Sequence record: OQ885479
Strand: one strand, 5' to 3'
Source: Escherichia phage SUT_E1520
Length of the DNA: 64,000 nucleotides
Part shown: piece after piece, positions 877-36,515 of the stretch
Numbering within the stretch: the stretch's first letter is position 1
Layout: the number at the start of each line of letters is the position of its first letter
Program-made: the position numbers and the translations under genes
Notes under the pieces: generated by a model
The model's database searches: none
What the model was told of the DNA's origin: nothing
The model's input: only the letters and a program-made list of their open reading frames with translations

Positions 877-1142
877 ATTTTGACACCTCCTAGTATATAG
901 AAAATGTGTGTCTCTTTGATCACTCATCCATAACATATACTTTACACTACCCCAGCGAAAATGTCAAGGGGTCTTTAAAAATTGCCCCCGGATTTTTAGT
1001 GGGGTCACAAATTTTGGTCCTCCCCACTTATCTGCTACCCTTAAGTGCCCTATGATTTTCCTCTAAAAAGTTAAAAAATTTGATTGCTTGAATGCTAAAT
1101 TCTCTGTATAATATATCTATAAATTTGAGAGAGGAACCAAAT

Positions 1143-1661
1143 ATGAATGTTGATGAGCTAACACAGCACCTCTTATCCAGAGGATTTGATACAGATAAAT
1201 ATCATTGCTGGTTAAGTCCGGAAGGATGGCTAACAGTCCCGTTGTATGACTTCTCCGGGATGTTGCGAGGCTATCAGACGTATAATCCTTCTGCTCCAAA
1301 AGGTCATGGTAAGTGTCCCTTTGAAGCTAAATATTTTACTTATTCTACTACCCAGTGTGTATGGGGACTAGAAACTCTCAATGGAGATGAAAAAGTAGTA
1401 TTGATCGCTGAATCTGTATTTAAGGCAGTTGCGCTACATAACGCTGGTTATCCAGCCCTGGCAATGTTAGGTTCTTCTCCAGGAAAAGCGTTATTAAAGC
1501 AACTGAAATTATTACCTTTTAAATTGGTAGCTGTCGGAGACAACGATCCTGCGGGTGAAAAATTTGCTAGAAAATTAAACGGCTTTGTTTCTCCCGTAGA
1601 TGTGGATGAGATGTCTACCGAAAACTTGAAAAATTTTCTTGCTATGAAGCTAAATTTCTAA
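1143..1661 (+). CDS. Toprim-domain protein (primase-like or RNase M5-like fold)
   Basis: ORF track 1092..1661, start moved to the ATG after the conserved early leader GAGAGAGGAACCAAAT; Toprim signature VVLIAES...VAVGDNDPAGEKFARKL. Confidence 0.6.
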   Translation: MNVDELTQHLLSRGFDTDKYHCWLSPEGWLTVPLYDFSGMLRGYQTYNPSAPKGHGKCPFEAKYFTYSTTQCVWGLETLNGDEKVVLIAESVFKAVALHNAGYPALAMLGSSPGKALLKQLKLLPFKLVAVGDNDPAGEKFARKLNGFVSPVDVDEMSTENLKNFLAMKLNF

Positions 1662-1682
1662 TATAATATATCTTATAAATTC

Positions 1683-1771
1683 GGAAGAATAGCATAACGG
1701 TATTGCAGCAGATTGCTAATCTGTCGGTTTGAAATATAGCCTTGTGGGTTCGATTCCCACTTCTTCCGCCA
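1683..1771 (+). tRNA. tRNA-Ser (anticodon GCU), class II with long variable arm
   Basis: Manual fold: acceptor GGAAGAA/TTCTTCC, anticodon loop TTGCTAA, T-loop GGTTCGATTCC, 3-prime CCA encoded. Confidence 0.7.
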
Positions 1772-1777
1772 AATTCT

Positions 1778-1855
1778 GGTTCTCAAGCTCATATGGTATG
1801 AGCACCCGGCTCATAACCGGAAGGTACGTAGGTTCGAATCCTCGGGGAGCCACCA
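1778..1855 (+). tRNA. tRNA with CAU anticodon (Met or Ile2 type)
   Basis: Manual fold: acceptor with two G-U pairs, D-arm GCTCATATGGTATGAGC, anticodon loop CTCATAA, T-loop GGTTCGAATCC, CCA. Confidence 0.55.
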
Positions 1856-2073
1856 ACTTAATTAGGGGATTACAAGTGGAATTATACATAGTTTATGTTG
1901 TATTTATTCAAGATAGAGAATACCCGGATGAATATAAAAAAGGATATAGGTTAGCCAGAGCTACCTCTGAGGCCCAAGCTATGGATAAAGTGGCAGATTA
2001 TATGATTATGGTAGAAAACGTATACTATATCGACTCCCTTGAAGCCTCAAAAGTAATTGACTAAGGAGACTAT

Positions 2074-2259
2074 ATGTCCAAGTTTCAAGAACTCAAGCAA
2101 GAGCTAGAAGAATGTGCCTGCCCTGAGTGTAGGGGAATTGGTGAAAGTTCTGATGCAGAAGCAGGAGATACTTTTTGCAATATCTGGATTTGTTCAAATT
2201 GCAACGGTACAGGTATTAATCCTAACTGCGGTGTTTCCCTAGATATTGAACGAGGATAA
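2074..2259 (+). CDS. small Cys-rich protein (zinc-ribbon-like CPEC...CSNC)
   Basis: ORF track; SD AAGGAGA upstream; two CxxC pairs. Confidence 0.5.
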   Translation: MSKFQELKQELEECACPECRGIGESSDAEAGDTFCNIWICSNCNGTGINPNCGVSLDIERG

Positions 2260-2360
2260 TACCTGTGAAACTAAAAGATTATTATATTGGTTGGTTTGTG
2301 GGACTAGTAGTAGGATTTTCACTAGGCTATAATATGTATCAACTAATAAACTGATTACAT

Positions 2361-2437
2361 GGGGGTGTAATCGAATTGGTATAGGTACTGGACTTAAAAT
2401 TCAGGTTTTGTGGGTTCGAATCCCACCACCCCTACCA
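2361..2437 (+). tRNA. tRNA with UAA anticodon (Leu type) on a short-variable-loop scaffold; atypical
   Basis: Manual fold: acceptor GGGGGTG/CACCCCT, anticodon stem CTGGA/TTCAG, loop CTTAAAA, T-arm GTGGGTTCGAATCCCAC, CCA. Confidence 0.5.
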
Positions 2438-2452
2438 ACTTAAGGAAATAAG

Positions 2453-2620
2453 ATGTATAGACATCCACCTCCGCCAACACGTCGTTCTAGAGAAGTTATC
2501 CTCATGGAATTGACGAAAAACTTCAAGGCAACTCTTGAAGATAGAGATCTAGGCACAGATGAAGACATTGATTTTATTTGTAGACTATTAAACATGAAAC
2601 TGGAGAAACAACATGGCTAA
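2453..2620 (+). CDS. hypothetical small protein (55 aa)
   Basis: ATG after SD AAGGAAATAAG directly downstream of the tRNA; stop overlaps the next gene start; below the track length cutoff. Confidence 0.35.
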   Translation: MYRHPPPPTRRSREVILMELTKNFKATLEDRDLGTDEDIDFICRLLNMKLEKQHG

Positions 2621-2819
2621 TCCCGAAATTACCGCACAACGTTTCATGCTTAAAGGCATGATTGCTGAGGCAGGTATGACTCAAGAGGTTGCAGACTTTC
2701 ATAAGCAATTTCTTGATATTATAACCCTAGCTAAAGAGACAGGAGAAAGAGAACACGGAGCAGCAATTATGGCTATATCTCTTATTAGCCTAGACTTAGC
2801 TGAAGAATCTGGAGTTTAG
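2613..2819 (+). CDS. hypothetical protein
   Basis: ORF track; SD GGAGAAACAAC upstream. Confidence 0.5.
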   Translation: MANPEITAQRFMLKGMIAEAGMTQEVADFHKQFLDIITLAKETGEREHGAAIMAISLISLDLAEESGV

Positions 2820-2849
2820 CTCCTCCAAACAGAATTTTTAAAAATGTAC

Positions 2850-2879
2850 TTGCCTTTTGCTTTAAATTTCTGGTATAAT
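2850..2879 (+). promoter_or_regulatory. T5-type early promoter (-35 TTGCCT, -10 TATAAT, A-rich upstream)
   Basis: Member of a repeated promoter family with conserved leader ATAAATTGATGAAGGAG. Confidence 0.6.
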
Positions 2880-2909
2880 AGTTATATAAATTGATGAAGG
2901 AGTTAACGA

Positions 2910-3185
2910 ATGCAAAATCGTGTTATAGCAACTGGTATTGAAAGTGCAATCTGTAAATCCTGGGAAGGCTGGGAAGGTGAGATTGAATGGCTTTATTTCT
3001 ACGATGTAGAACTTCTGCCGGAAGTTAAAGCTAAATGTATTGAAGCTGGCATGGCTCCAGATGCAAAAGCTGATATTGATATTTCAATGTCTGAACTTAA
3101 AGGTCGTGTAATTACTGTTAGTGATGAGGGCGAAGAAGTTTTCGAACTTCCATTCTCCTTAACTGTCGCTCCTAAGTTCGACTAA
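2910..3185 (+). CDS. hypothetical protein
   Basis: ORF track; promoter and SD upstream. Confidence 0.55.
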   Translation: MQNRVIATGIESAICKSWEGWEGEIEWLYFYDVELLPEVKAKCIEAGMAPDAKADIDISMSELKGRVITVSDEGEEVFELPFSLTVAPKFD

Positions 3186-3221
3186 CTAATACAGCACTGA
3201 GCAAGTTCTTTAAAATTTGAC

Positions 3222-3250
3222 TTGCTCAGTGCCATAAAACTTGATATAAT
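3222..3250 (+). promoter_or_regulatory. T5-type early promoter upstream of the tRNA block; overlaps a 12-bp inverted repeat (3192-3232)
   Basis: TTGCTC-N17-TATAAT; GCACTGAGCAAG / CTTGCTCAGTGC hairpin overlaps the -35. Confidence 0.5.
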
Positions 3251-3313
3251 AGTTATCTAATTTGGAAACATATCTAAAAGTGTTTAAACTAGTATTTGAA
3301 TACTTTTAAATAT

Positions 3314-3404
3314 GTTGGATTAGTATCGTAGAGGTAGCGAAGCAGACTGTAAATCTGCCGACTCGGAAGGGTCTCGGGTGGTTCGACTCCATCATCCAAC
3401 ACCA
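3314..3404 (+). tRNA. tRNA-Tyr (GUA), class II
   Basis: Acceptor GTTGGAT/ATCCAAC, anticodon loop CTGTAAA, long variable arm, T-loop GGTTCGACTCC, CCA. Confidence 0.7.
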
Positions 3405-3411
3405 AATTTAA

Positions 3412-3488
3412 GTCCTGTTAGACAAACTGGTAAAGTCACTACCCTTTCAAGGTAGGATTTGCGGGTTCGATCCCCGCACAGGACGCCA
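3412..3488 (+). tRNA. tRNA-Glu (UUC)
   Basis: Acceptor GTCCTGT/ACAGGAC, anticodon arm CTACC-CTTTCAA-GGTAG, T-arm GCGGGTTCGATCCCCGC, CCA. Confidence 0.75.
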
Positions 3489-3496
3489 ATTCCTGC

Positions 3497-3573
3497 ATTC
3501 CTAGAGTGTTACTGGACAGCATGTCGGTCTCCAAAACCGTACGGTCTAGGTTCGAGTCCTAGTAGGTTTGCCA
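3497..3573 (+). tRNA. tRNA-Trp (CCA); 5-prime boundary uncertain
   Basis: Anticodon loop CTCCAAA, T-arm CTAGGTTCGAGTCCTAG, CCA; acceptor pairing has two mismatches. Confidence 0.5.
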
Positions 3574-3579
3574 AAATTT

Positions 3580-3654
3580 GCACCTTTAGCTGAGATGGAT
3601 TAGCGCTTGCCTGAAGAGCTTGAGAGGTTCGTTCGATACGAACAGGGTGCACCA
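3580..3654 (+). tRNA. tRNA, probable Phe (GAA); unusual T-arm GTTCG-TTCGATA-CGAAC
   Basis: Acceptor GCACCTT/AGGGTGC, loop CTGAAGA, CCA; anticodon stem imperfect. Confidence 0.5.
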
Positions 3655-3656
3655 AA

Positions 3657-3944
3657 TTGAGGGAGCTGCTGATGCATCCTGAAAACTTCTTTATTTACTG
3701 CGCGGATAAGTTGCTGAAACGTAGAATTAACAAAGTCTATCATTATCGTGCTAGTCAACAGCCTTATGTATACGCTTTTGACGGTGATCACATTCCATTA
3801 GAACAATTATCCTGTGATTACATGATATTGAAGAACTTTGACGAGACAAAGATCTCAAGCGTTCATAATCGACAGAATCCCTTAACGTGGAAATATAAGA
3901 AGAAAAAGAAAGGCATCAAATTTTTAAAAAATGTAGTTGCTTAG
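3657..3944 (+). CDS. hypothetical protein (TTG start per track; first ATG at 3672)
   Basis: ORF track; starts immediately after the tRNA. Confidence 0.4.
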   Translation: MRELLMHPENFFIYCADKLLKRRINKVYHYRASQQPYVYAFDGDHIPLEQLSCDYMILKNFDETKISSVHNRQNPLTWKYKKKKKGIKFLKNVVA

Positions 3945-3965
3945 TTTCCAAAAGTTCTGTATAAT
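3937..3965 (+). promoter_or_regulatory. T5-type early promoter
   Basis: TTGCTT-N17-TATAAT followed by the conserved ATAAATTGAACTGGAGAAG leader. Confidence 0.6.
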
Positions 3966-4012
3966 AATTACATAAATTGAACTGGAGAAGCAACATGACA
4001 GAACAAGATAAA

Positions 4013-4088
4013 TCGACCGTTGGCTGAATGGCTTAGGCGAAGGATTGCAAATCCTTTTTATGTGAGTTCAAATCTCATGCGGTCGTCC
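4013..4088 (+). tRNA. tRNA-Cys (GCA)
   Basis: Acceptor CGACCGT/GCGGTCG, anticodon arm AAGGA-TTGCAAA-TCCTT, T-loop GTTCAAATC, CCA. Confidence 0.7.
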
Positions 4089-4230
4089 AATTTGCTGAAA
4101 GAGTTGTTAAATCAATTCAGGCACGCGTAGGAACACTGTCTCCGTAATTGAAAGATGAGGCACGGTTTGGAGAGGTATGCCGCTACACGCTACGGTGCTA
4201 ACTCCGTCTAGGTGAAAATCCTAGTCAGCA
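4089..4230 (+). ncRNA. structured non-coding segment (about 140 nt); T-arm-like hairpin with a non-canonical TGAAAAT loop
   Basis: No ORF; closing helix TTGCTGA / TCAGCAA; CTAGG-TGAAAAT-CCTAG hairpin; does not fold as a standard tRNA. Confidence 0.3.
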
Positions 4231-4241
4231 ATATAAATTTA

Positions 4242-4324
4242 GGGTCGTTAGCCAAGCGGTTTGGCGGTGGACTGTTAATCCATGTCGAAAGACAACGTAG
4301 GTTCGAATCCTACACGGCCCGCCA
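4242..4324 (+). tRNA. tRNA, anticodon GUU (Asn type) with an unusually long 13-nt variable region
   Basis: Acceptor GGGTCGT/ACGGCCC, loop CTGTTAA, T-arm GTAGGTTCGAATCCTAC, CCA. Confidence 0.55.
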
Positions 4325-4426
4325 AATTCTGTGTAGAGTTAAGTAAACCGGTAGCCAACCAGCTATCATTGCTGACATCGAATTCAGTCACAGATACCAT
4401 TTTCATTAATAACTGAGGAAACAAGC

Positions 4427-4612
4427 ATGTCCAAGAATGTAATTGCACAGCTAGAAGTTCATCGTGATAGCACTATCAACAATATTGAAGTTGAGAAGAA
4501 ATACATCGAAGAACTTAAACATGATATACTAGTAAGTCTCAACCGTCTTAATGTACGAAAAAAGTTTCTTAAAGAACTTAATGCAGCTATTGAAAAACTC
4601 AAAGCTGAGTAA
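4427..4612 (+). CDS. hypothetical protein (coiled-coil-like)
   Basis: ORF track; SD GAGGAAACAAGC. Confidence 0.5.
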   Translation: MSKNVIAQLEVHRDSTINNIEVEKKYIEELKHDILVSLNRLNVRKKFLKELNAAIEKLKAE

Positions 4613-4621
4613 ATGAATTAT

Positions 4622-4699
4622 GCGACCGGGGCTGGCTTGGTAATGGTACTCCCCTGTCACGGGAGGGAATGTGGGTTCAAATCCCATCGGTCGCGCCAA
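4622..4699 (+). tRNA. tRNA-Asp (GUC)
   Basis: Acceptor GCGACCG/CGGTCGC, anticodon arm CTCCC-CTGTCAC-GGGAG, T-loop GGTTCAAATCC, CCA. Confidence 0.75.
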
Positions 4700-4724
4700 A
4701 TTAAACTAGTACGAGAAATATGCT

Positions 4725-5072
4725 ATGATTAATGCTAAAGAAGAATTGTTACTTGCCTTAAAGAATATTAATTCTGAAGTTAAGTGTATTAAGATAGAAT
4801 TCGGTTATTATGGGGACAAAGAAGTTTGGGTGTTACCCGTAGGTTATACAGAAAAAGATATTGAAGATTTTCTAAATAATCTAGACTTTAAATATGATTC
4901 TGGTTTCGGTGGGCAATTGCTTTATGGTAACGTGTGGTTTACTGATGGAACTTGGTTAGAACGTGGTGAATACGACGGTTCTGAATGGTGGGAATATAAG
5001 GCTACACCAGCAATCCCAGAAGAATGCCGAACAATTAAGGGTGAAGTAGATAATACTTTACGGTTAAACTAA
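4725..5072 (+). CDS. hypothetical protein
   Basis: ORF track. Confidence 0.55.
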   Translation: MINAKEELLLALKNINSEVKCIKIEFGYYGDKEVWVLPVGYTEKDIEDFLNNLDFKYDSGFGGQLLYGNVWFTDGTWLERGEYDGSEWWEYKATPAIPEECRTIKGEVDNTLRLN

Positions 5073-5079
5073 TAAAATT

Positions 5080-5182
5080 TCAGTGCAGAACACGGAGCTA
5101 GCAATTCGGAAGTGCTGACTCATGATAAGCTGCCTATGTACTTGCGAAGCGGTCGTGTCCAAGACTCGGACTCTTGCACTGA
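5080..5182 (+). ncRNA. structured non-coding element 1 of 3 in tandem (about 100 nt, long closing helix)
   Basis: No ORF; CAGTGCAGA pairs with TCTTGCACTG across about 90 nt. Confidence 0.3.
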
Positions 5183-5203
5183 AAACAATCAAACATTCTA
5201 GCG

Positions 5204-5316
5204 TGGTTGATGGGGAAACCAGCTTGGCGAGGGCAGAAGCTCGTTCGATTCGAGTGAAAGAATGGTTCTCGTAAGTCCGCACAAGTGATAACAGGTTCGA
5301 GTCCTGTCTAGAATGA
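5204..5316 (+). ncRNA. tRNA-like structured element 2 of 3 (about 112 nt): 8-bp acceptor-like helix, D-arm-like and canonical T-arm, no standard anticodon arm
   Basis: CATTCTAG / CTAGAATG closing helix; TGGTT-GATGGGGAA-ACCA; ACAGG-TTCGAGT-CCTGT. Confidence 0.35.
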
Positions 5317-5327
5317 CACTATAAAGT

Positions 5328-5438
5328 TTACTTATTATGTAGGTTCCGATAGATCGGCGGGTCTATTCTGGCACTTAAGAGAGGTCTCGCAAACTTCTTT
5401 GTCAGCCGTGGGGTTGGTAGCCTCCAGGTGGCCTACAC
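5328..5438 (+). ncRNA. structured non-coding element 3 of 3 (about 110 nt)
   Basis: TACTTATTATGTAGG pairs with CCTACACAATAAGTA; no ORF. Confidence 0.3.
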
Positions 5439-5464
5439 AATAAGTAAATTTATTAAAAATTCAT

Positions 5465-5493
5465 TTGCTATTATGCTTAATTCTCTGTATAAT
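5465..5493 (+). promoter_or_regulatory. T5-type early promoter
   Basis: TTGCTA-N17-TATAAT; leader ATAAAGTGTTGAGAAGG. Confidence 0.6.
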
Positions 5494-5525
5494 ATACCTT
5501 ATAAAGTGTTGAGAAGGAAAGCAAA

Positions 5526-5723
5526 ATGAAAAAAGTTTTACTGCTGTCTGTATTCCTACTTACTGGTTGTTTTAAACTTGACTCAACCATTAATAAAGAG
5601 TATGAATTTGCTAAAAATTTCTGTGGCGGAGAGAGTAATATAAAGAATTTCTACATATATAGTACAATTCCTAGTACCGTTTATTGTGTAGACGGACGAA
5701 TTATTAATATTCCTCCACAATAA
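5526..5723 (+). CDS. putative lipoprotein (signal peptide with lipobox LTGC)
   Basis: ORF track; N-terminus MKKVLLLSVFLLTGC. Confidence 0.5.
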   Translation: MKKVLLLSVFLLTGCFKLDSTINKEYEFAKNFCGGESNIKNFYIYSTIPSTVYCVDGRIINIPPQ

Positions 5724-5732
5724 AAGAATTAA

Positions 5733-5808
5733 CAGTGCGTAGCGCAGTTGGTAGCGTGGGAGCCTTGGATGCTTCGGGTCGCAGGTTCGAGTCCTGCCGC
5801 ACTGACCA
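5733..5808 (+). tRNA. tRNA-Pro (UGG)
   Basis: Acceptor CAGTGCG/CGCACTG, D-arm GCGCAGTTGGTAGCGT, loop CTTGGAT, T-arm GCAGGTTCGAGTCCTGC, CCA. Confidence 0.7.
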
Positions 5809-5815
5809 AACAATT

Positions 5816-5892
5816 GCGGGTTAGATCTCTGGTAGAGATCGCTAGTCTCATAAGCTAGAAAGAGGTAGGTTCGATTCCTGCACCCGCTTCCA
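5816..5892 (+). tRNA. tRNA with CAU anticodon (Met or Ile2 type)
   Basis: Anticodon arm CTAGT-CTCATAA-GCTAG, T-loop GGTTCGATTCC, CCA; first acceptor pair imperfect. Confidence 0.55.
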
Positions 5893-5912
5893 TTTTAATA
5901 GAGGATTTCGAA

Positions 5913-6080
5913 ATGAAAGTATTTCGATTAGTAGTAAGTGACAAACGGTTAGGTAAGAATACATCAAAATCCTTACTCGCTCATTATGGTAAAAATTGGG
6001 ATGAAGTAATGGTAGAGTTTAGTACTAATCACCCTTACTTAAAAGTCCACTCTATTAAGGAAGTGTATAATGGTTACTAA
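5913..6080 (+). CDS. hypothetical small protein (55 aa)
   Basis: ATG after SD AGAGGA; below the track cutoff. Confidence 0.35.
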   Translation: MKVFRLVVSDKRLGKNTSKSLLAHYGKNWDEVMVEFSTNHPYLKVHSIKEVYNGY

Positions 6081-6081
6081 T

Positions 6082-6160
6082 AGATCGCTAGCTCAATAGG
6101 TTTAGTAGCATCCGACTTTTAATCGGAAGGTTCTGGGTTCGAGTCCCAGGCGATCTACCA
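6082..6160 (+). tRNA. tRNA-Lys (UUU)
   Basis: Acceptor AGATCGC/GCGATCT, anticodon arm TCCGA-CTTTTAA-TCGGA, T-arm CTGGGTTCGAGTCCCAG, CCA. Confidence 0.7.
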
Positions 6161-6178
6161 ATTTCAAGAAAAACGCAG

Positions 6179-6207
6179 TTGCTTAATGCTTAATTTCTTG
6201 TTATAAT
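6179..6207 (+). promoter_or_regulatory. T5-type early promoter driving a non-coding leader and downstream tRNAs
   Basis: TTGCTT-N17-TATAAT; leader ATAAATTGATGAGGAG but no ORF follows. Confidence 0.6.
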
Positions 6208-6214
6208 ATTTATA

Positions 6215-6445
6215 TAAATTGATGAGGAGAAATCCTCATCATAGTTCACTAAGGTATTAGCTCGACCTAGGACTGGCTGCCAAAAAGCACGATCCCTACG
6301 ATTCGGGAGAAGTTCTAGATTAGTCCACTAGGTTCAGCGGCAACTGAATAGTGTATCGGGTTTGCGAGATGACGCGGTTCCTTCCGCTTGAAGCGAAGGT
6401 GCTGTAGTTACGCCGAGCTAATAGCCTTAGTAAACTAAAGAATTT
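6215..6445 (+). ncRNA. promoter-proximal structured non-coding RNA candidate (about 230 nt) upstream of tRNA-Ala
   Basis: No ORF or tRNA fold; 9-bp long-range helix ATTAGCTCG (6256-6264) with CGAGCTAAT (6414-6422). Confidence 0.35.
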
Positions 6446-6524
6446 GGGGAATGGGTCTGCATGGAGTGGACACCTCGCTTGCACCGAGGACATCAGAACG
6501 GTTCGATTCCGTTATTCTCCACCA
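6446..6524 (+). tRNA. tRNA-Ala (UGC)
   Basis: Acceptor GGGGAAT/ATTCTCC, anticodon arm CCTCG-CTTGCAC-CGAGG, T-arm AACGGTTCGATTCCGTT, CCA. Confidence 0.65.
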
Positions 6525-6529
6525 AACAT

Positions 6530-6606
6530 GCGTGATTGATGGAATTGGCATACATACCGTCCTTAGAAGTCGGGTTTTGAGGGTTCGAATCCCTTGTCAC
6601 GCACCA
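6530..6606 (+). tRNA. tRNA with UAG anticodon (Leu type) on a short-variable-loop scaffold; atypical
   Basis: Acceptor GCGTGAT/GTCACGC, loop CTTAGAA, variable GTTTT, T-arm GAGGGTTCGAATCCCTT, CCA. Confidence 0.5.
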
Positions 6607-6718
6607 AATTTGATGGTCAGAGTAAATTAAACCTACTATCTCGGTTGAGCTGTTTTAATGGGTTCGAATCCCAGCGAGGCGTAACTGCCTGGTGTGATAG
6701 AGGCATCATCTTATTATT
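6607..6718 (+). ncRNA. non-coding segment with an orphan T-arm (GGGTTCGAATCCCAG) and no recognisable acceptor stem
   Basis: Canonical T-loop near 6658-6672 but no complementary 5-prime/3-prime acceptor halves found by hand. Confidence 0.25.
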
Positions 6719-6809
6719 GGAAGAGCAAATCGAATTGGCGACGAAAACCGCTTGGAAAGTGGCTGACTGGTAAAACGGCTTGAGAGTTCAAATCTCTCCT
6801 CTTCCGCCA
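6719..6809 (+). tRNA. tRNA-Ser (GGA), class II
   Basis: Acceptor GGAAGAG/CTCTTCC, loop TTGGAAA, long variable arm, T-arm GAGAGTTCAAATCTCTC, CCA. Confidence 0.6.
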
Positions 6810-6821
6810 AACAATTTATAT

Positions 6822-6916
6822 GGTAGGTCAATCCAATGGCTGGCGCTGGACTCCGACTTGAAATCGGTTGATCGTAGTGATACGGTGTAAGGGTTCGATC
6901 CCCTTACCTACCTCCA
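6822..6916 (+). tRNA. tRNA-Ser (UGA), class II with a very long variable arm (95 nt total)
   Basis: Acceptor GGTAGGT/ACCTACC, anticodon arm CCGA-CTTGAAA-TCGG, T-arm AAGGGTTCGATCCCCTT, CCA. Confidence 0.6.
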
Positions 6917-7062
6917 AATCCTGAAGTATGCCGGAATCGGTAGACGGGGCTGCCTAAAAGGTTTATAGGGAACATCCACTCCCTGCAACATACCTCATAA
7001 AGCGGCTGAGATAAATGGTCTATCTCGTGAAGGTTCAAGTCCTTCTGCTTCTTGATACACCA
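6917..7062 (+). ncRNA. non-coding structured segment containing a T-arm-like hairpin (GAAGG-TTCAAGT-CCTTC); not resolved as a tRNA
   Basis: No ORF; several local hairpins, including GAGATA-AATGGTC-TATCTC. Confidence 0.25.
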
Positions 7063-7282
7063 ATGGCTCAAAGTGTAACGGTGCTATTTGATGCGCTTAG
7101 TAAGACTTCCCCGACATGCGTTCGGGAGTAAGCTGCTAAGACTAGAGTAGAAGAGTTTCTGAGAGCCGCCACAATTGAAAATTCGTACTCGTCTTGAGCT
7201 GCGTGCAATAGGAGATAACTTGATTAGTATTCTAGAACATGCTAATTGAGGAAGGTTTCGCTAACCCTGCGAGTTTTCAATT
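7063..7282 (+). ncRNA. non-coding structured segment with a 13-bp long-range helix
   Basis: CCACAATTGAAAA (7169-7181) pairs with TTTTCAATTGTGG (7273-7285); no ORF, no canonical T-loop. Confidence 0.3.
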
Positions 7283-7359
7283 GTGGCTATATCATAATTG
7301 GTTAATGATCCTGATTGTGAATCAGGCCTATGTGGATTCGAATTCCACTAGCCACCCCA
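7283..7359 (+). tRNA. tRNA-His (GUG)
   Basis: Acceptor GTGGCTA/TAGCCAC, anticodon arm CCTGA-TTGTGAA-TCAGG, T-arm GTGGATTCGAATTCCAC, CCA. Confidence 0.7.
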
Positions 7360-7384
7360 AATTAACTTAAATAGGAAATAAAAT

Positions 7385-7579
7385 ATGGCTGATTTCTGCA
7401 AACAATGCTCCATTGATATGTGGGGTAAAGATACTGGTGATCTTTCTGGTTTGATTACAGAAGCTGAGGTCAAAGAAGGTTATGGTGCAGTTGTGATTTG
7501 CGAAGGATGCGGCGTTATTCGTGTTGATCATGAAGGCAAACGTTTGGAAGAATCTGAGCCAACAACAATTTTTCCGTAG
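7385..7579 (+). CDS. small Cys-containing protein (CxxC...CxxC zinc-finger-like)
   Basis: ORF track; SD AGGAAATAAA. Confidence 0.5.
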   Translation: MADFCKQCSIDMWGKDTGDLSGLITEAEVKEGYGAVVICEGCGVIRVDHEGKRLEESEPTTIFP

Positions 7580-7591
7580 AATAAAAATTAT

Positions 7592-7667
7592 TGGGATGTA
7601 GATCAATTGGCAGATCGTCGGCCTCTGACTCCGAAGGTTCCACGTTCGATCCGTGGCATCCCAGCCA
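7592..7667 (+). tRNA. tRNA-Gln (CUG)
   Basis: Loop CTCTGAC, T-arm CCACGTTCGATCCGTGG, CCA. Confidence 0.55.
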
Positions 7668-7673
7668 AATAAT

Positions 7674-7749
7674 TGGAGAGTAGTGTAACGGTTAGCACAA
7701 CGGCCTTTGACTCCGTTAATGGTAGGTTCGATTCCTCCTTCTCCAGCCA
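7674..7749 (+). tRNA. tRNA-Gln (UUG)
   Basis: Loop CTTTGAC, T-loop GGTTCGATTCC, CCA. Confidence 0.55.
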
Positions 7750-7757
7750 AACAATAA

Positions 7758-7833
7758 GCGGTTAAGCACACGGGTTGTGCCGCAGGCCTTCCAAGCCTCG
7801 CTGAGTAGGGTTCGATTCCCTCTAGCCGCTCCA
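7758..7833 (+). tRNA. tRNA-Gly (UCC)
   Basis: Acceptor GCGGTTA/TAGCCGC, loop CTTCCAA, T-loop GGTTCGATTCC, CCA. Confidence 0.6.
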
Positions 7834-7849
7834 ACTTTAAGGAAACATT

Positions 7850-8101
7850 ATGCACGTTTTTGAGTTTCGTAATAAAAGTACCGAAAAACGAGTTATTGTT
7901 ATTGGAGAAACATACCGAGCATACGAACAAACTGACGGCTCTGTTATCCTGAATGATGAGAAAGGAGGTTTTAGCTTTTATCCAGAAGAACCTTATGAAG
8001 AGTTTCGAAAACAATTTAACCTAGACTGGAGAAAGCATTTAAACACTGTTGCTTCATCTGTAGTATTGCCAACTACCAGTACTGTACTCTCTAATGGCTG
8101 A
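7850..8101 (+). CDS. hypothetical protein
   Basis: ORF track; SD AAGGAAACA. Confidence 0.5.
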   Translation: MHVFEFRNKSTEKRVIVIGETYRAYEQTDGSVILNDEKGGFSFYPEEPYEEFRKQFNLDWRKHLNTVASSVVLPTTSTVLSNG

Positions 8102-8258
8102 TAACCTAAAAGTCAAGATCGATAAACAAAAGAAACGTGTAGAAGTAGAGATTGGTGAAGAACGTGTAGCCTTCACCTTTGAATTTCTACAACAAATGGC
8201 AATGGCGGTTATGACTGATAAGTCTCCTGTTATTGAAAAAGAAATCCCGTTGAAATAA
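8094..8258 (+). CDS. hypothetical small protein (54 aa), start overlaps the upstream stop
   Basis: ATGGCTGA overlap with the preceding gene; below the track cutoff. Confidence 0.35.
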   Translation: MADNLKVKIDKQKKRVEVEIGEERVAFTFEFLQQMAMAVMTDKSPVIEKEIPLK

Positions 8259-8266
8259 CGGGTTCT

Positions 8267-8353
8267 GCTGGGTTGGCAGAATGGTTGAATGCACCTGATT
8301 TGTAATCAGGAGGAGTAATCCCGTTACAGGTTCGAATCCTGTGCCCAGCACCA
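8267..8353 (+). tRNA. tRNA with long variable region; anticodon read as UGU (Thr type) but identity uncertain
   Basis: Acceptor GCTGGGT/GCCCAGC, anticodon arm CCTGA-TTTGTAA-TCAGG, T-arm ACAGGTTCGAATCCTGT, CCA. Confidence 0.5.
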
Positions 8354-8367
8354 ACTTAAGGACTATT

Positions 8368-8535
8368 ATGTTTAAATTATTAGTAGTTATCTGGTATAGT
8401 CAATCAAATAGAGCGAATACCTCCCACGTTATAGACTTTAATACTAAAAATGAAGCTGAAAAAGCATATTCTAATTTAATAGAACGTAATAAAGAATCTC
8501 GTAGTATAGTTTATGAAGTGACTAAACTTTATTAA
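8368..8535 (+). CDS. hypothetical small protein (start moved to the in-frame ATG after the tRNA)
   Basis: Track ORF 8341..8535 begins inside the tRNA; SD AAGGACT precedes the ATG at 8368. Confidence 0.4.
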   Translation: MFKLLVVIWYSQSNRANTSHVIDFNTKNEAEKAYSNLIERNKESRSIVYEVTKLY

Positions 8536-8543
8536 AAATTCAT

Positions 8544-8572
8544 TTGCTTTCTCTCTTATTTATTGTTATAAT
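8544..8572 (+). promoter_or_regulatory. T5-type early promoter
   Basis: TTGCTT-N17-TATAAT; leader ATAAATTAATGAGAGGG. Confidence 0.6.
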
Positions 8573-8602
8573 ATTTATATAAATTAATGAGAGGGAAGCC
8601 AA

Positions 8603-8896
8603 ATGAAACGTTATCTTTCTGTTGTGTTCCAAACTGGTGGTCAACGCTATACCTATGAATTTCCTGGCTCTTGGAAGATCAAAGAAGGTGATCAAGTAGT
8701 AGTGTTAACACCGCGTGAGGGTTTTAAGGTAGTAACGGTTAAGCAAGTATTTCCAAAAGAGCATGAACCAGCTAAAGGCATTCGCTATAAGATGATTCAT
8801 GGTGTAGTTCGTCAAGTACCACGAGCGGAAGTCGAAATCAAAGTAGATAAAGATGGTAAACTTAAATATACCTCTTGCTTAGACGAGTTGCTATAA
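8603..8896 (+). CDS. hypothetical protein
   Basis: ORF track; promoter and SD upstream. Confidence 0.55.
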   Translation: MKRYLSVVFQTGGQRYTYEFPGSWKIKEGDQVVVLTPREGFKVVTVKQVFPKEHEPAKGIRYKMIHGVVRQVPRAEVEIKVDKDGKLKYTSCLDELL

Positions 8897-9102
8897 TGAG
8901 GATTACTTTTACAGAAAAGATCATGAGTAATGGTGTTATGATCATTACCGCATGGGATGGTAATCAGTGGTGTAGTGTTTCAGGTATTAAGCCTGAAGAA
9001 CAAACACTAGAAAATATCTCAAAGATTAAGCGAAGAATGGCAGAACGTGCACGACTTCCAGGTGCACCTAGAAATGGCAAACGTTCTGCTGCAAAATGTT
9101 AA
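8896..9102 (+). CDS. hypothetical protein (start at TAATG overlap)
   Basis: Track ORF 8875..9102; in-frame ATG at 8896 overlaps the upstream stop. Confidence 0.45.
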   Translation: MRITFTEKIMSNGVMIITAWDGNQWCSVSGIKPEEQTLENISKIKRRMAERARLPGAPRNGKRSAAKC

Positions 9103-9103
9103 T

Positions 9104-9180
9104 GCTTCGGTAGCTTAGCGATCTAAAGCACTCGGCTGATAACCGAGAGATCGGGGGTTTAAATCCCTCCCGGAGTACCA
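9104..9180 (+). tRNA. tRNA-Ile (GAU) with a non-canonical T-loop (TTTAAAT)
   Basis: Acceptor GCTTCGG/CCGGAGT with G-U pairs, anticodon arm CTCGG-CTGATAA-CCGAG, CCA. Confidence 0.6.
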
Positions 9181-9194
9181 AATTAAGGTTATGT

Positions 9195-9353
9195 ATGGAA
9201 GATATTGATAAACTTGCAAAAATATTTGCTGAACTTTCTGATATAGAAGTCTCAGAGAACTCTAGAATAGATATGTTTATTGACCAATATAGAGAAGGAC
9301 TTATCAGTAAGAAAGATCTTCTAGATCTAACCTATAAAGAATTAACTAGTTAG
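9195..9353 (+). CDS. hypothetical small protein (52 aa)
   Basis: ATG after SD AAGG; below the track cutoff. Confidence 0.35.
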   Translation: MEDIDKLAKIFAELSDIEVSENSRIDMFIDQYREGLISKKDLLDLTYKELTS

Positions 9354-9423
9354 TTGGCAGAGTGGTTATGCACCTCCTTCATACGGAGCGACTACAGTGG
9401 TTCAAATCCACTACTAACTACCA
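9348..9423 (+). tRNA. tRNA with CAU anticodon (third CAU tRNA; Met or Ile2 type)
   Basis: Acceptor AGTTAGT/ACTAACT, loop TTCATAC, T-arm AGTGGTTCAAATCCACT, CCA. Confidence 0.6.
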
Positions 9424-9460
9424 TTAAAAGAGCTAGAGATAGCTAACTTTAGGAGCAGCT

Positions 9461-9655
9461 ATGTTAACAATTAAAATAATGTCAGCCAAGAATGGGGAAC
9501 AGATTCATACAGGCAAAAGTGTAAGCTTTAATCCTAGAAATAAAAGATTGGCTATAGTTGGAGTAGACCAAGCCATCTTTTTAAAAGAAGATGAAGTAGC
9601 ATATGTCATGAACCAAACTGGTAAGACAGTTTCCGTATACTATGGAAAAGTATAA
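9461..9655 (+). CDS. hypothetical protein
   Basis: ORF track; SD AGGAGCAGCT. Confidence 0.5.
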   Translation: MLTIKIMSAKNGEQIHTGKSVSFNPRNKRLAIVGVDQAIFLKEDEVAYVMNQTGKTVSVYYGKV

Positions 9656-9697
9656 AGAATAAATAGCTGAGCCAAATTCTAACATCGGGGAGATCTA

Positions 9698-10066
9698 ATG
9701 AAAGCATATCAAAATCTTAAATCTGGCGTAATTAACCTTGTTCATGAAAATCAGATTATTCAGCTATACTCCGACAACGGTGAACTTAAACAGAAAGTTC
9801 TAGTTGAAGATCTAGAAGGTATCACACCACAATTCGATCCCGAAGCCTTCCGTGAAGTCAAAGTGGAAGTCGCCCCTCAAATCGAAGGTGGTCAGCACCT
9901 AAATGTCAATGTGTTAAGCTGTGATCAGCTTTTGGATGCGCAGAAACATCCTGAAAAATATCCTCAGTTGACCATCCGTGTCTCTGGCTACGCTGTTCGA
10001 TTTAACGCACTGACTCGTGAACAACAGAACGACGTTATTAGTCGTACATTTACTCAGGCGATGTAA
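9698..10066 (+). CDS. autonomous glycyl-radical cofactor (GrcA/YfiD-like; pyruvate formate-lyase C-terminal domain homolog)
   Basis: C-terminus [31 protein letters not shown] matches the glycyl-radical motif RVSGY of PflB/GrcA. Confidence 0.8.
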
Positions 10067-10147
10067 TGGGGTTTGGGTACGATTTCTCCGAACTACGTGA
10101 GGTAGTCGAGCAAACTCCGTTTATCTCCCAAGTTTTAGGAGAAATGT

Positions 10148-10462
10148 GTGGATCGAGCATTAAGACGCCATCACCGGCAACGTGTGAAGAACAACCGCAA
10201 GAAGTATTGGACAGTCTTTCCACATGAAGAAAGCCCTAAGCGGTTAGGTATTATCACTACTACTCCTTGCATCTGTTCTTGTTGGATGTGCGGGAACCCT
10301 CGCAAATATTATAAGAATAGTAAAGCAGGCATGAAAATTTCGGAGATTAGGAAAATGGAAGCAATGATTATGGGCATCTCAAATGATGAATTTGATGGCT
10401 TTGTAGGATTCGGAGAAGGAATCAGCTCAGGCTATTCCGAAGATGAACGCCCCGATCTGTAA
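10148..10462 (+). CDS. hypothetical basic protein (GTG start per track; a competing 53-aa frame starts at 10066)
   Basis: ORF track; overlapping alternative frame leaves the true gene uncertain. Confidence 0.35.
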   Translation: MDRALRRHHRQRVKNNRKKYWTVFPHEESPKRLGIITTTPCICSCWMCGNPRKYYKNSKAGMKISEIRKMEAMIMGISNDEFDGFVGFGEGISSGYSEDERPDL

Positions 10463-10471
10463 TTAATAACA

Positions 10472-10508
10472 AACCCCAGCTATTGAATAAGTAGTCTGGG
10501 GTTTTTCT
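10472..10508 (+). terminator. rho-independent terminator
   Basis: CCCCAGCT...AGTCTGGGG hairpin followed by TTTTTCT. Confidence 0.6.
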
Positions 10509-10583
10509 GTATAAAGGTACATAATATATGTATAATAAAATTCATCCACATTAGGTTAATTTAAAAGACTTAATGGAGGTAAT

Positions 10584-10931
10584 ATGAGCCGTACTTATCG
10601 TAAACAATCTGGTGATCAGTGGTGGAAGTCTAAAGAACACTTCTCTCAAGAATATTCTTTCTTCAAAGAAAATGGCTACTGGATTCGTGTTATTTATGCC
10701 AAATCCTGGGACGACATCAAAAAAGAAATGAAGGAAGCAACCATTCGTAATGAGAAAAAGGATGGTTATAACTGGAATTCCATTAGTAAGAATGTTAAGT
10801 GGCACTCTAATAAAATGGTTCGTCAAGGGAATCGTCAAGAACTTCACCGCGTGATGAAAGATCCAGAAAATTACGACTATAATCGCGATCATGACATGCG
10901 TAAGCGTGGGTTATGGTGGTGCTATGACTAA
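10584..10931 (+). CDS. hypothetical protein
   Basis: ORF track; SD GGAGGTAAT. Confidence 0.55.
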   Translation: MSRTYRKQSGDQWWKSKEHFSQEYSFFKENGYWIRVIYAKSWDDIKKEMKEATIRNEKKDGYNWNSISKNVKWHSNKMVRQGNRQELHRVMKDPENYDYNRDHDMRKRGLWWCYD

Positions 10932-10948
10932 ATTCTGAAATAATTCAT

Positions 10949-10977
10949 TTGCTAAACCTCTCTTTTCTTGCTATAAT
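10949..10977 (+). promoter_or_regulatory. T5-type early promoter
   Basis: TTGCTA-N17-TATAAT; leader ATAAATTGATGAGAGAGG. Confidence 0.6.
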
Positions 10978-11007
10978 ATGTTTATAAATTGATGAGAGAG
11001 GTTTGAA

Positions 11008-11289
11008 ATGAAAACTCGTCTAGACTGTGCTGTTCATGTTCTTGAGCATGATGTTGCTGGAACCTGTATGTCTTACCACGAAGCAGGTCGTTTAATTAAA
11101 GAACGTGTGGCAGATGTGTGCGGATTGAAGATTACTGCTGAGGAAGCTGATGATCTTTTAGGTCAAGCACTGGAGAAAACCGAAATGTTCCTCTGCGATT
11201 CTTGTTCTTGGTGGTGTGAAGCTCACGAACGTTCTTTCAATGATTATGATGTATGTCGTGATTGTAGTGGGGAGGATGAAGATGAATAA
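11008..11289 (+). CDS. Cys-rich acidic protein (C-terminus CRDCSGEDEDE)
   Basis: ORF track; promoter upstream. Confidence 0.55.
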   Translation: MKTRLDCAVHVLEHDVAGTCMSYHEAGRLIKERVADVCGLKITAEEADDLLGQALEKTEMFLCDSCSWWCEAHERSFNDYDVCRDCSGEDEDE

Positions 11290-11581
11290 GTTTATTATTG
11301 CACTGATGATCTCCGCAGTTAGTTTCGGTTCTCTGGCGTCTACCAAAGTTTCTATGAAAAATGGTAATGTTAAAGTCCAACAGAACGGCATTATTACCGA
11401 GTATGGTAAAGTTCGTGATGTTAAGGAACGTAATGGTAAAGTAGAAATCTATACTAATAAAAACTTCTCTACTCCAGCCATTACTATTAGCAAACGCGGT
11501 GAAATAACCACCCAACGTACTAATAGCTCCAGTTCTTTTACTTGTCGTTATGATTGCGACTTTGAAGGTGAAGATGAATAA
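11276..11581 (+). CDS. secreted protein (signal peptide), C-terminus CRYDCDFEGEDE
   Basis: Track ORF 11216..11581; start moved to the in-frame ATG after SD GGGGAGG. Confidence 0.5.
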   Translation: MKMNKFIIALMISAVSFGSLASTKVSMKNGNVKVQQNGIITEYGKVRDVKERNGKVEIYTNKNFSTPAITISKRGEITTQRTNSSSSFTCRYDCDFEGEDE

Positions 11582-27179: not shown

Positions 27180-27235
27180 GATCCTGCATGTCTCGGTGCA
27201 CAATACCTGTACCGAGACTCAAATACAAACTCTCG

Positions 27236-36460: not shown

Positions 36461-36515
36461 TTAAATTATTTCCCTAGCGGCTTGAAATATAGCCGCTATT
36501 TCAGGAGTCACAAAA

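What the first reader, a model, noticed from the sequence alone, without database searches (positions are those of the whole stretch)
9698..10066. Phage-encoded GrcA-like glycyl-radical cofactor
The C-terminal 30 residues are nearly identical to the glycyl-radical domain of E. coli PflB/GrcA ([10 protein letters not shown]...). GrcA rescues oxygen-damaged pyruvate formate-lyase, so the phage may be sustaining host anaerobic metabolism during infection.
Basis: partly seen in the sequence, partly recalled or inferred. Interest (0 to 1): 0.45.

Follow-up and report, generated by a model that had tools for sequence, protein, structure and literature searches.

The report
T5 phage GrcA-like glycyl-radical spare part
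This is the T5-family phage copy of a small "spare part" protein that can replace the oxygen-broken radical tip of the host's pyruvate formate-lyase; the gene is real and conserved, and it is already annotated in identical published phage genomes, with a relative in phage T4 tested biochemically in 2001.

Summary
The ORF at 9698-10066 (+) is real: 122 aa, good Shine-Dalgarno site, coordinates exact. Its C-terminal 60 residues form a glycyl-radical domain: Pfam PF01228 E=4e-17; E. coli GrcA structure 6OWR E=1.6e-29; PflB E=6e-26. Identity is 47/60 to PflB and GrcA and 50/60 to TdcE. The Gly loop RVSGYAV is exact.

The window is a T5-like phage (Tequintavirus), 100% identical here to phages SUT_E520 and T5_ev212. 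T5_ev212 annotates the gene as "putative autonomous glycyl radical cofactor GrcA". It corresponds to T5.056/T5p055, annotated as PFL-related since the T5 genome papers. About 435 T5-like records carry it, under strong purifying selection (dN/dS 0.07).

The T4 homologue Y06I (vs.6) was shown in 2001 to be activated by host PFL-activase and to rescue oxygen-cleaved PFL.

Modest extras:
- T5 residues 1-35 have diverged beyond detectable homology to GrcA/Y06I.
- No phage activase was found, so activation must depend on host PflA.
- In two other phage lineages the gene sits inside the nrdD-nrdG operon. This suggests the pay-off may be formate for the phage's anaerobic ribonucleotide reductase.
- No experiment exists for the T5 protein itself.

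The parts
9698..10066 (+). CDS of the GrcA-like protein (122 aa plus stop); orthologue of T5.056 / T5p055
   Evidence: ORF list. 100% identical region in phages SUT_E520 and T5_ev212, annotated GrcA in the latter. T5 reference and st0 annotations.
9687..9692 (+). Shine-Dalgarno GGGGAG, 5 nt before the ATG
   Evidence: Read directly from the sequence.
9698..9883 (+). N-terminal module (residues 1-62). Residues 36-62 are homologous to other phage GrcA-likes; residues 1-35 are lineage-specific and predicted as a four-strand beta-meander.
   Evidence: hhalign of N-terminal halves. AF2 model with pLDDT about 83 for residues 1-40. dN/dS 0.11.
9884..10063 (+). Glycyl-radical domain (residues 63-122), equivalent to PflB 700-759 and GrcA 68-127
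   Evidence: Pfam, NCBIfam and PDB matches. Alignment with 40 invariant columns. Foldseek top hits are 6OWR and 2PFL. dN/dS 0.019.
9977..9997 (+). Gly loop RVSGYAV. G97 (codon 9986-9988) aligns with the radical site G734 of PflB and G102 of GrcA.
   Evidence: Alignments. This 7-mer is the peptide that PFL-AE activates, whereas RVCGYLG is not activated (PMC13450708).
8544..8572 (+). Probable early promoter of the transcription unit (TTGCTT, 17 nt spacer, TGtTATAAT); counterpart of T5 promoter P11
   Evidence: Sequence compared with the annotated P11 of T5. The simple consensus scan missed it.
10474..10506 (+). Rho-independent terminator closing the unit (CCCCAG...CTGGGG followed by TTTTT)
   Evidence: Sequence, nearly identical to the terminator annotated in T5 at 27219-27251. 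The consensus scan missed it because the loop is long.
9104..9180 (+). tRNA-Ile(GAU), co-oriented and upstream in the same unit
   Evidence: ARAGORN; Rfam.
9348..9423 (+). tRNA-Met(CAU), co-oriented and upstream in the same unit
   Evidence: ARAGORN; Rfam.

Best explanation
[quoted passage not shown] It is transcribed with the T5 early genes from a P11-like promoter. The 122-aa protein is recognised by the host pyruvate formate-lyase activating enzyme PflA through its exact RVSGYAV loop. PflA uses S-adenosylmethionine to abstract a hydrogen from G97. The radical-bearing C-terminal domain (residues 63-122) then docks into host PflB, and probably TdcE, whose own C-terminal radical domain has been cleaved at G734 by oxygen. 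There it passes the radical to Cys419 and restores conversion of pyruvate to acetyl-CoA plus formate. Established knowledge holds that T5 degrades host DNA early in infection, so the infected cell could no longer make new PflB or GrcA. Under that premise the phage brings its own spare part to keep fermentative acetyl-CoA, ATP and formate production going in micro-oxic, gut-like conditions. What is shown here: the domain identity, the Gly loop, conservation and purifying selection, the absence of a phage activase, and the position in the early-gene region. What is inferred: activation by PflA, docking into PflB/TdcE, and the benefit to the phage.
For: Glycyl-radical domain matches: Pfam E=4e-17; GrcA NCBIfam models E=6e-35 and 3e-33; PDB 6OWR E=1.6e-29 and PflB E=6e-26, with G97 aligned to G734. 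36-40 invariant columns, including E63 G64 G65 and T92-N103, across phage and bacterial GrcAs. The AF2 model places G97 at the tip of a beta-hairpin between two helices, and its best structural matches are YfiD and PFL. PFL-AE activates the RVSGYAV 7-mer but not the class III RNR loop RVCGYLG, and it also activates TdcE, which has the same loop (PMC13450708). T4 Y06I was validated as a spare part for cleaved PFL (PMC8683613); it aligns with the T5 protein over the full length (52% identity, E=1e-37) and both fall in PHROG 1209 (E=1e-46). Purifying selection across 29 alleles: dN/dS 0.069 overall, 0.019 in the radical domain and 0.11 in the N-terminal half. About 435 T5-like records carry the gene at 80% or higher amino-acid identity. 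No PflA or NrdG homologue was found in the window or in T5 1-75 kb, nor within 10 kb of any phage GrcA-like gene. The promoter and terminator correspond to annotated T5 early signals.
Against: No experiment on the T5 protein was found. The curated GrcA equivalog threshold is not reached (120 vs 170 bits) and only residues 50-122 match. Residues 1-35 show no detectable homology to the N-terminal half of GrcA/Y06I, and in YfiD that half is needed for binding cleaved PFL and for efficient activation (PMC8683613). Partner recognition could therefore differ. This window's allele has Cys75 where every other T5-like allele has Arg; the effect is unknown. T5 75-85 kb was not screened for an activase.
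Confidence: 0.8

Rival explanations
1. Same chemistry, different purpose. The main selective benefit is to keep PFL producing formate, the reductant of the phage's own anaerobic (class III) ribonucleotide reductase NrdD. On this reading the GrcA-like protein is an accessory of anaerobic dNTP synthesis rather than of energy metabolism. This refines the best explanation and does not exclude it.
For: T5 encodes NrdD (T5.099), 51% identical to the E. coli enzyme. Class III RNRs of the E. coli/T4 type take both reducing equivalents from formate (PMC4493059). In Aeromonas phage Ah1 the gene order is nrdD-nrdG-vs.6-nrdC-nrdH; in Klebsiella jumbo phage Muenster it is nrdD-grcA-nrdA.1-nrdG. Five non-T5 phage loci have the GrcA-like gene within 1.5 kb of nrdD/nrdG. 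The Gly loop remains PFL-type in those operons.
Against: In T5-like and T4-like phages the gene is not near nrdD: about 26 kb away in T5 and more than 10 kb away in all T4-like loci. Adjacency was seen in only two lineages. I found no paper proposing or testing this link. Whole-genome co-occurrence was not computed.
Confidence: 0.3
2. The physiological partner is TdcE (2-ketobutyrate/pyruvate formate-lyase 4) rather than PflB.
For: The radical domain is slightly closer to TdcE: 50/60 vs 47/60, with 28/30 vs 25/30 over the last 30 residues (TdcE figure counted by hand). Several depositors label the gene 2-ketobutyrate formate-lyase. PFL-AE also activates TdcE.
Against: The difference is 3 residues in 60. 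Nucleotide identity to tdcE is only 74%, no higher than to pflB at 77%. As established background, PflB is by far the more abundant enzyme and TdcE is expressed only under tdc-operon induction. T4 Y06I and GrcA were validated on PflB.
Confidence: 0.1
3. It is a decoy: it soaks up PflA activity or blocks the PFL active site, shutting down host fermentation instead of sustaining it.
For: The N-terminal 35 residues differ from GrcA, so behaviour toward intact PFL could differ. GrcA can also act on full-length inactive PflB in vivo (PMC12338860), so binding is not restricted to cleaved enzyme.
Against: All residues conserved across functional GrcAs, including the radical Gly and the C-terminal helix, are retained under very strong purifying selection (dN/dS 0.019). 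A decoy would not need them all. The T4 homologue restores rather than inhibits activity.
Confidence: 0.05
4. It is a spare radical domain for the phage's own NrdD, activated by host NrdG.
For: T5 has nrdD but no nrdG (PMC3653736). The gene sits in nrdDG operons in other phages.
Against: There is no significant similarity to the T5 NrdD C-terminus (blastp E=5). The NrdD loop is RVCGYLG and is followed by a different tail. PFL-AE discriminates between these two Gly-loop sequences, which suggests loop-dependent activase specificity. The domain is 77-82% identical to PflB/TdcE.
Confidence: 0.03

Closest known systems
Bacteriophage T4 Y06I (gene vs.6, NP_049730)
   Same: A stand-alone phage protein of about 120 aa, starting MKAYQ, with a C-terminal glycyl-radical domain and an RVSGYAV loop. 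It falls in the same PHROG (1209) and aligns over the full length at 52% identity. Y06I was biochemically shown to be activated by PFL-AE and to rescue cleaved PFL.
   Different: The radical domain of Y06I is 59/60 aa and 98% nucleotide identical to E. coli grcA, indicating a recent swap from the host. The T5 domain is an old, separate lineage: 72-77% nucleotide identity to host genes and about 50% identity at third codon positions. The N-terminal half of Y06I is clearly homologous to bacterial GrcA (hhalign 98.5%); T5 residues 1-35 are not. The genomic settings also differ (vs region in T4, tRNA region in T5).
E. coli GrcA / YfiD (P68066; PDB 6OWR)
   Same: Size class, domain order, radical domain (47/60 identical), Gly loop and predicted fold.
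   Different: Only residues 50-122 align. The protein scores below the NCBIfam equivalog cutoff. [quoted passage not shown] It is encoded by a virulent phage under an early phage promoter rather than under host regulation.
C-terminal glycyl-radical domain of E. coli PflB (698-759) and TdcE
   Same: 77% identity to PflB and 82% to TdcE over about 61 residues. The Gly loop and C-terminal helix are the same.
   Different: The 690-residue catalytic barrel with Cys418/Cys419 is absent, so it cannot be a formate acetyltransferase on its own. The database labels 'pyruvate formate-lyase', '2-ketobutyrate formate-lyase' and 'acetyltransferase-related protein' are misnomers.
GrcA-like genes of jumbo Klebsiella/Salmonella phages (K64-1, Muenster) and Aeromonas T4-like phages (Ah1, Aeh1)
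   Same: Small phage GrcA-likes with RVSGYAV; 46-70% identical to the T5 protein.
   Different: They lie inside the nrdD-nrdG operon, and their N-terminal halves are of the GrcA/Y06I type.

Membership tests
GrcA/YfiD autonomous glycyl radical cofactor (TIGR04365, IPR011140, COG3445) | Stand-alone protein of about 115-130 aa, not fused to a GRE catalytic barrel | tested here: met
   122-aa ORF with only 5 open codons upstream.
GrcA/YfiD autonomous glycyl radical cofactor (TIGR04365, IPR011140, COG3445) | C-terminal domain of about 60 aa homologous to PflB residues 698-759, with a PFL-type Gly loop RVSGYAV and the radical glycine | tested here: met
   PF01228 E=4e-17. PflB alignment places G97 at G734. 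47/60 identity to GrcA and PflB. Invariant columns.
GrcA/YfiD autonomous glycyl radical cofactor (TIGR04365, IPR011140, COG3445) | Full-length match above the curated equivalog score | tested here: not met
   TIGR04365 scores 120.2 bits against a cutoff of 170, covering residues 50-122 only. The GrcA2 and GrcA3 models are also below cutoff.
GrcA/YfiD autonomous glycyl radical cofactor (TIGR04365, IPR011140, COG3445) | N-terminal region of about 60 aa homologous to that of GrcA (needed in YfiD for binding cleaved PFL) | tested here: inconclusive
   hhalign: T5 residues 50-62 align to bacterial GrcA (43% probability) and residues 36-62 align to other phage GrcA-likes (94.5%). Residues 1-35 give no match. 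The T5 profile is shallow, with 10 near-identical sequences.
GrcA/YfiD autonomous glycyl radical cofactor (TIGR04365, IPR011140, COG3445) | Glycyl radical installed by PFL-activating enzyme | not testable with these tools
   Only inferred, from the exact RVSGYAV loop and published peptide specificity.
GrcA/YfiD autonomous glycyl radical cofactor (TIGR04365, IPR011140, COG3445) | Restores activity to oxygen-cleaved PFL | not testable with these tools
   Shown for YfiD and T4 Y06I only.
Phage Vs.6/Y06I family (PHROG 1209) | Full-length profile match | tested here: met
   E=1.3e-46, residues 1-122 against profile positions 1-121 of 121.
Formate C-acetyltransferase (PflB/TdcE, TIGR01255), as many records label it | Catalytic barrel of about 760 aa with Cys418/Cys419 | tested here: not met
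   Only the last 62 profile positions match: 83 bits against a cutoff of 994. The protein is 122 aa.
Class III RNR (NrdD) glycyl-radical tail | RVCGYLG loop preceded by a Zn-ribbon (CxxC...CxxC) | tested here: not met
   The T5 NrdD tail has CGKCG...CPICG...RRVCGYLG. The GrcA-like protein has neither feature, and blastp between the two gives E=5.

The most novel reading that the evidence does not exclude
Phage GrcA-like proteins may exist mainly to secure formate for the phage-encoded anaerobic ribonucleotide reductase. The proposed PFL-to-formate-to-NrdD coupling is suggested by the gene sitting inside nrdD-nrdG operons in two unrelated phage lineages. The T5 lineage may also have evolved a distinct N-terminal recognition module (residues 1-35) that changes which host enzyme state it engages (PflB or TdcE, cleaved or intact).
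Probability: 0.3. Interest if true: 0.45.

Novelty: already known. Interest (0 to 1): 0.15.

Why it matters
It is a clean example of a virulent phage carrying a repair part for a host enzyme, not the enzyme itself, which fits phages that replicate in the oxygen-fluctuating gut. That idea dates from the 2001 T4 Y06I work, and the T5 gene has been annotated as PFL/YfiD-related since the T5 genome papers. This window therefore adds nothing new in kind.

The useful residue is practical:
- Many database labels for this gene are wrong ("pyruvate formate-lyase", "2-ketobutyrate formate-lyase", "acetyltransferase-related", "ribonucleotide reductase subunit").
- The T5 protein itself is untested.
- Its N-terminal 35 residues differ from the characterised proteins.
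- The operon link to nrdDG in other phages gives a testable hypothesis about formate supply for anaerobic dNTP synthesis.

Tried and rejected
- **Relic or chance ORF:** rejected. dN/dS is 0.07 over 29 alleles and about 435 records carry the gene.
- **Derivation from the phage's own NrdD tail:** rejected. blastp gives E=5 and the Gly loops differ.
- **Phage-encoded activase:** tblastn with E. coli PflA and NrdG against the window and T5 1-75 kb found nothing better than E=5. No PflA was found within 10 kb of 80 phage loci.
- **Recent capture from the host, as in T4:** rejected for T5. Nucleotide identity to E. coli pflB, tdcE and grcA is 72-77%, with third-position identity of 48-58%.
- **Consensus promoter/terminator scan:** uninformative. 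The count equalled the shuffled expectation, and the scan missed both signals that are annotated in T5; I located them by comparison with the T5 record instead.
- **Neighbouring small ORFs:** Pfam and PHROG searches gave only unknown-function families.
- **Rfam on 8000-11500:** found only the three tRNAs.
- **Literature:** searches for any study of the T5 gene, or of a phage GrcA-formate-NrdD link, found nothing. The T4 omics paper does not mention vs.6.
- **Fold of the N-terminal module:** the Foldseek PDB search gave no significant match.

Full report
**1. The observation**

The + strand carries an ATG-to-TAA ORF at exactly 9698-10066, encoding 122 aa. Only five open codons lie upstream of the ATG. 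A GGGGAG Shine-Dalgarno site sits 5 nt before it. Opposite-strand ORFs in the interval are 33-36 aa with no support. Rfam finds only the flanking tRNAs.

The protein ends ...[31 protein letters not shown]. Database matches:
- Pfam Gly_radical: E=4.1e-17, 63 bits against a cutoff of 22.
- NCBIfam GrcA models: E=6e-35, 3e-33 and 3e-25.
- PDB 6OWR (E. coli YfiD/GrcA): E=1.6e-29.
- PflB structures: E=6e-26, with query 61-122 aligned to PflB 698-759, so G97 corresponds to the radical site G734.

Identity counts against the E. coli K-12 genes fetched here:

| Stretch | PflB | GrcA | TdcE |
|---|---|---|---|
| Last 30 residues | 25/30 | 23/30 | 28/30 (counted by hand from the printed C-termini) |
| Last 60 residues | 47/60 | 47/60 | 50/60 |

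**2. Where the window comes from**

The 2-kb region around the gene is 100% identical to Escherichia phages SUT_E520 and T5_ev212 (Tequintavirus, Demerecviridae), and 442 phage records match it. T5_ev212 annotates the ORF as "gcrA putative autonomous glycyl radical cofactor GrcA".

In the T5 reference genome the orthologue is T5.056, annotated "putative acetyltransferase-related protein, IPR001150". In the T5 st0 record it is T5p055, [quoted passage not shown]. The gene and its YfiD-like nature are therefore already in the public record.

The rest of the window fits a T5-like genome assembled with the terminal repeat collapsed: a tRNA cluster of 20 tRNAs in 1-9423, then dnk, lysis genes, the pre-early A1/dmp region and late structural genes.

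**3. Anatomy and expression**

The gene lies at the downstream end of the tRNA region, co-oriented with tRNA-Ile (9104-9180) and tRNA-Met (9348-9423) and with small ORFs of unknown function.

Comparison with annotated T5 signals gives two boundaries:
- A promoter equivalent to P11 at 8544-8572 (TTGCTT, 17 nt, TGtTATAAT).
- The annotated rho-independent terminator at 10474-10506.

The generic consensus scan missed both and was otherwise at the shuffled background level. The gene is therefore probably part of an early transcription unit read by host RNA polymerase. This is an inference from T5 annotation, not something shown here.

**4. Conservation**

A tblastn search finds the protein in 1582 phage records:
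- About 435 T5-like records at 80% identity or higher.
- Roughly 1000 T4-like records at about 52% identity (gene vs.6).
- Jumbo Klebsiella, Salmonella and Yersinia phages, Vibrio phages and Aeromonas phages.

Among 29 distinct T5-like alleles there are no indels or stops. dN/dS is 0.069 overall, 0.019 for the radical domain and 0.11 for the N-terminal half. Both halves are therefore functional.

Across phage and bacterial GrcAs, 36-40 columns are invariant, including E63-G65, H67-N69 and nearly all of P89-N103.

An AF2 model (68-sequence alignment, mean pLDDT 73.6) has these elements:
- A helix at 75-83.
- A beta-hairpin at 92-101 with G97 at its tip.
- A C-terminal helix at 107-118.

Its best PDB matches are YfiD (6OWR) and PFL (2PFL, rmsd 2.5 A over 51 columns).

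**5. Mechanism**

Published work describes the following:
- YfiD and T4 Y06I receive a glycyl radical from PFL-AE and form a complex with oxygen-cleaved PFL, restoring activity. These are the only two validated spare-part proteins (PMC8683613).
- The N-terminal 60 residues of YfiD aid binding and activation but are not needed for catalysis.
- GrcA also rescues full-length PflB(G734A) in vivo (PMC12338860).
- PFL-AE activates the 7-mer RVSGYAV but not the class III RNR loop RVCGYLG, and it also activates TdcE, which has the same loop (PMC13450708).

The T5 protein carries RVSGYAV exactly. T5's own NrdD carries RVCGYLG, and the two proteins are otherwise unrelated (blastp E=5).

Neither PflA nor NrdG homologues occur in the window or in T5 1-75 kb. 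None occurs within 10 kb of any of 80 phage loci. T5 is also listed among phages with nrdD but no nrdG (PMC3653736).

The most likely mechanism is this: host PflA installs the radical on G97, and residues 63-122 replace the damaged C-terminal domain of host PflB and/or TdcE. Established knowledge holds that T5 destroys host DNA early in infection. The rationale that the phage must supply its own GrcA follows from that; it is my inference and was not tested here.

**6. How it differs from the characterised proteins**

(a) *N-terminus.* The N-terminal halves of T4-like and jumbo-phage proteins are clearly homologous to bacterial GrcA (hhalign 98.5%, 59 columns). For the T5 protein, only residues 36-62 align to those phage proteins and only residues 50-62 align to GrcA. 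Residues 1-35 give nothing beyond the shared MKAYQ start. AF2 predicts a four-strand beta-meander for 2-36 at pLDDT about 83, whereas the N-terminus of YfiD is disordered by NMR. This explains why the NCBIfam equivalog cutoff is missed. The caveat is that the T5 profile is shallow.

(b) *Origin.* The last 185 nt of T4 vs.6 (from IEGG to the stop) are 98% identical to E. coli grcA, with sharp borders. That indicates a very recent host-derived domain swap. The T5 domain is only 72-77% identical at the nucleotide level to pflB, tdcE and grcA, with third-position identity of 48-58%. It is an old lineage held in place by protein-level constraint. Vibrio phage KIT04 (Demerecviridae, Ermolyevavirinae) also has a GrcA gene in its tRNA region, so the gene is probably old in the family.

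(c) *This allele.* The window's protein has Cys75 where every other T5-like allele has Arg. The position is variable across the wider family (R, H, Q or K).

**7. A lead beyond the finding**

In Aeromonas phage Ah1 the gene order is nrdD-nrdG-vs.6-nrdC-nrdH. In Klebsiella jumbo phage Muenster it is nrdD-grcA-nrdA.1-nrdG. Five phage loci have the gene within 1.5 kb of nrdD/nrdG, and in those operons the Gly loop stays PFL-type.

Class III RNRs of the E. coli/T4 type use formate as reductant (PMC4493059). T5 NrdD is 51% identical to E. coli NrdD. A plausible refinement is that keeping PFL alive secures formate for phage anaerobic dNTP synthesis. I found no paper stating this. It rests on gene neighbourhood in two lineages and is not supported by synteny in T5 or T4 themselves. 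I rate it about 0.3.

**8. Verdict**

The feature is already known and already annotated in identical genomes. Interest is low (0.15). The only open points are the absence of any direct test of the T5 protein, its divergent N-terminal 35 residues, and the possible formate-NrdD connection.

Noticed in passing
L005:7558-7920 (phage T4 vs.6) compared with L041:2067-2450 (E. coli grcA): The last 185 nt of T4 vs.6 (from the IEGG codons to the stop) are 98% identical to E. coli K-12 grcA. Identity stops abruptly at both ends, and the N-terminal half is unrelated at the DNA level. This looks like a very recent host-to-phage domain swap or gene conversion.
   Followed up: partly
L044:2367-5947 (Aeromonas phage Ah1); L046:3104-6070 (Klebsiella phage Muenster); also L075-L077, L106, L126: GrcA-like genes are embedded in the anaerobic ribonucleotide reductase operon (nrdD-nrdG) in jumbo Klebsiella-type phages and Aeromonas T4-like phages, yet they keep the PFL-type RVSGYAV loop. 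This suggests a functional link, possibly formate supply for NrdD.
   Followed up: partly
window 9920-9922 (codon 75 of the ORF): This allele has Cys75 (TGT) where all 28 other distinct T5-like alleles examined have Arg (CGT). The position aligns with Arg712 of PflB by the register. The same change is present in SUT_E520 and T5_ev212, which are 100% identical at the nucleotide level.
   Followed up: partly
window 9461-9655 (+): A 64-aa ORF (PHROG 3909, unknown function) lies between tRNA-Met and the GrcA-like gene. It is absent from the T5 reference, where the tRNA-Met gene directly abuts T5.056. This probably explains the 92% coverage in two pieces seen in many T5-like hits.
   Followed up: partly
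window 10066-10227 (+) and 10148-10462 (+): Two overlapping downstream ORFs in different frames are each annotated in different genomes. One is 53 aa (PHROG 31464) and starts at the TAATG overlap with the GrcA-like stop codon. The other is 104 aa (PHROG 4499/6828) and equals T5.055. Which one is translated is unclear.
   Followed up: no
P0034 (67 aa, Citrobacter phage YZU-L1 and 7 others); hit H42 (Salmonella phage KKP_3822, match in 2 pieces): Some T5-like genomes carry, or are annotated with, only the radical-domain part of the gene (MEVVPQVEGG...) or a frameshifted copy. These are either natural N-terminal truncations or sequencing and annotation artefacts. The gene is labelled 'ribonucleotide reductase subunit' there.
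   Followed up: no
L059 and L070 (both from IMGVR_UViG_2974601769_000001, 110,901 bp): One viral contig carries two different alleles of the gene (95% and 89% identity to the query), one near each end. This suggests a chimeric or concatenated assembly of two related T5-like phages.
   Followed up: no
window 1-9423 and 34796-41388: Twenty tRNA genes are packed in the first 9.4 kb. The pre-early genes (A1-like 554 aa, dmp-like 244 aa) run directly into the late region (640-aa receptor-binding-protein-like ORF). This indicates an assembly with the roughly 10-kb terminal repeat collapsed or circularly permuted.
   Followed up: partly
L101, L102, L105, L108, L110-L113, L116, L118 (IMG/VR 'viral' contigs): Ten 'viral contig' hits are full-length or partial host pflB genes, 94-100% identical to E. 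coli PflB, and not phage GrcA-likes. These contigs are probably prophage flanks or misclassified bacterial DNA.
   Followed up: no
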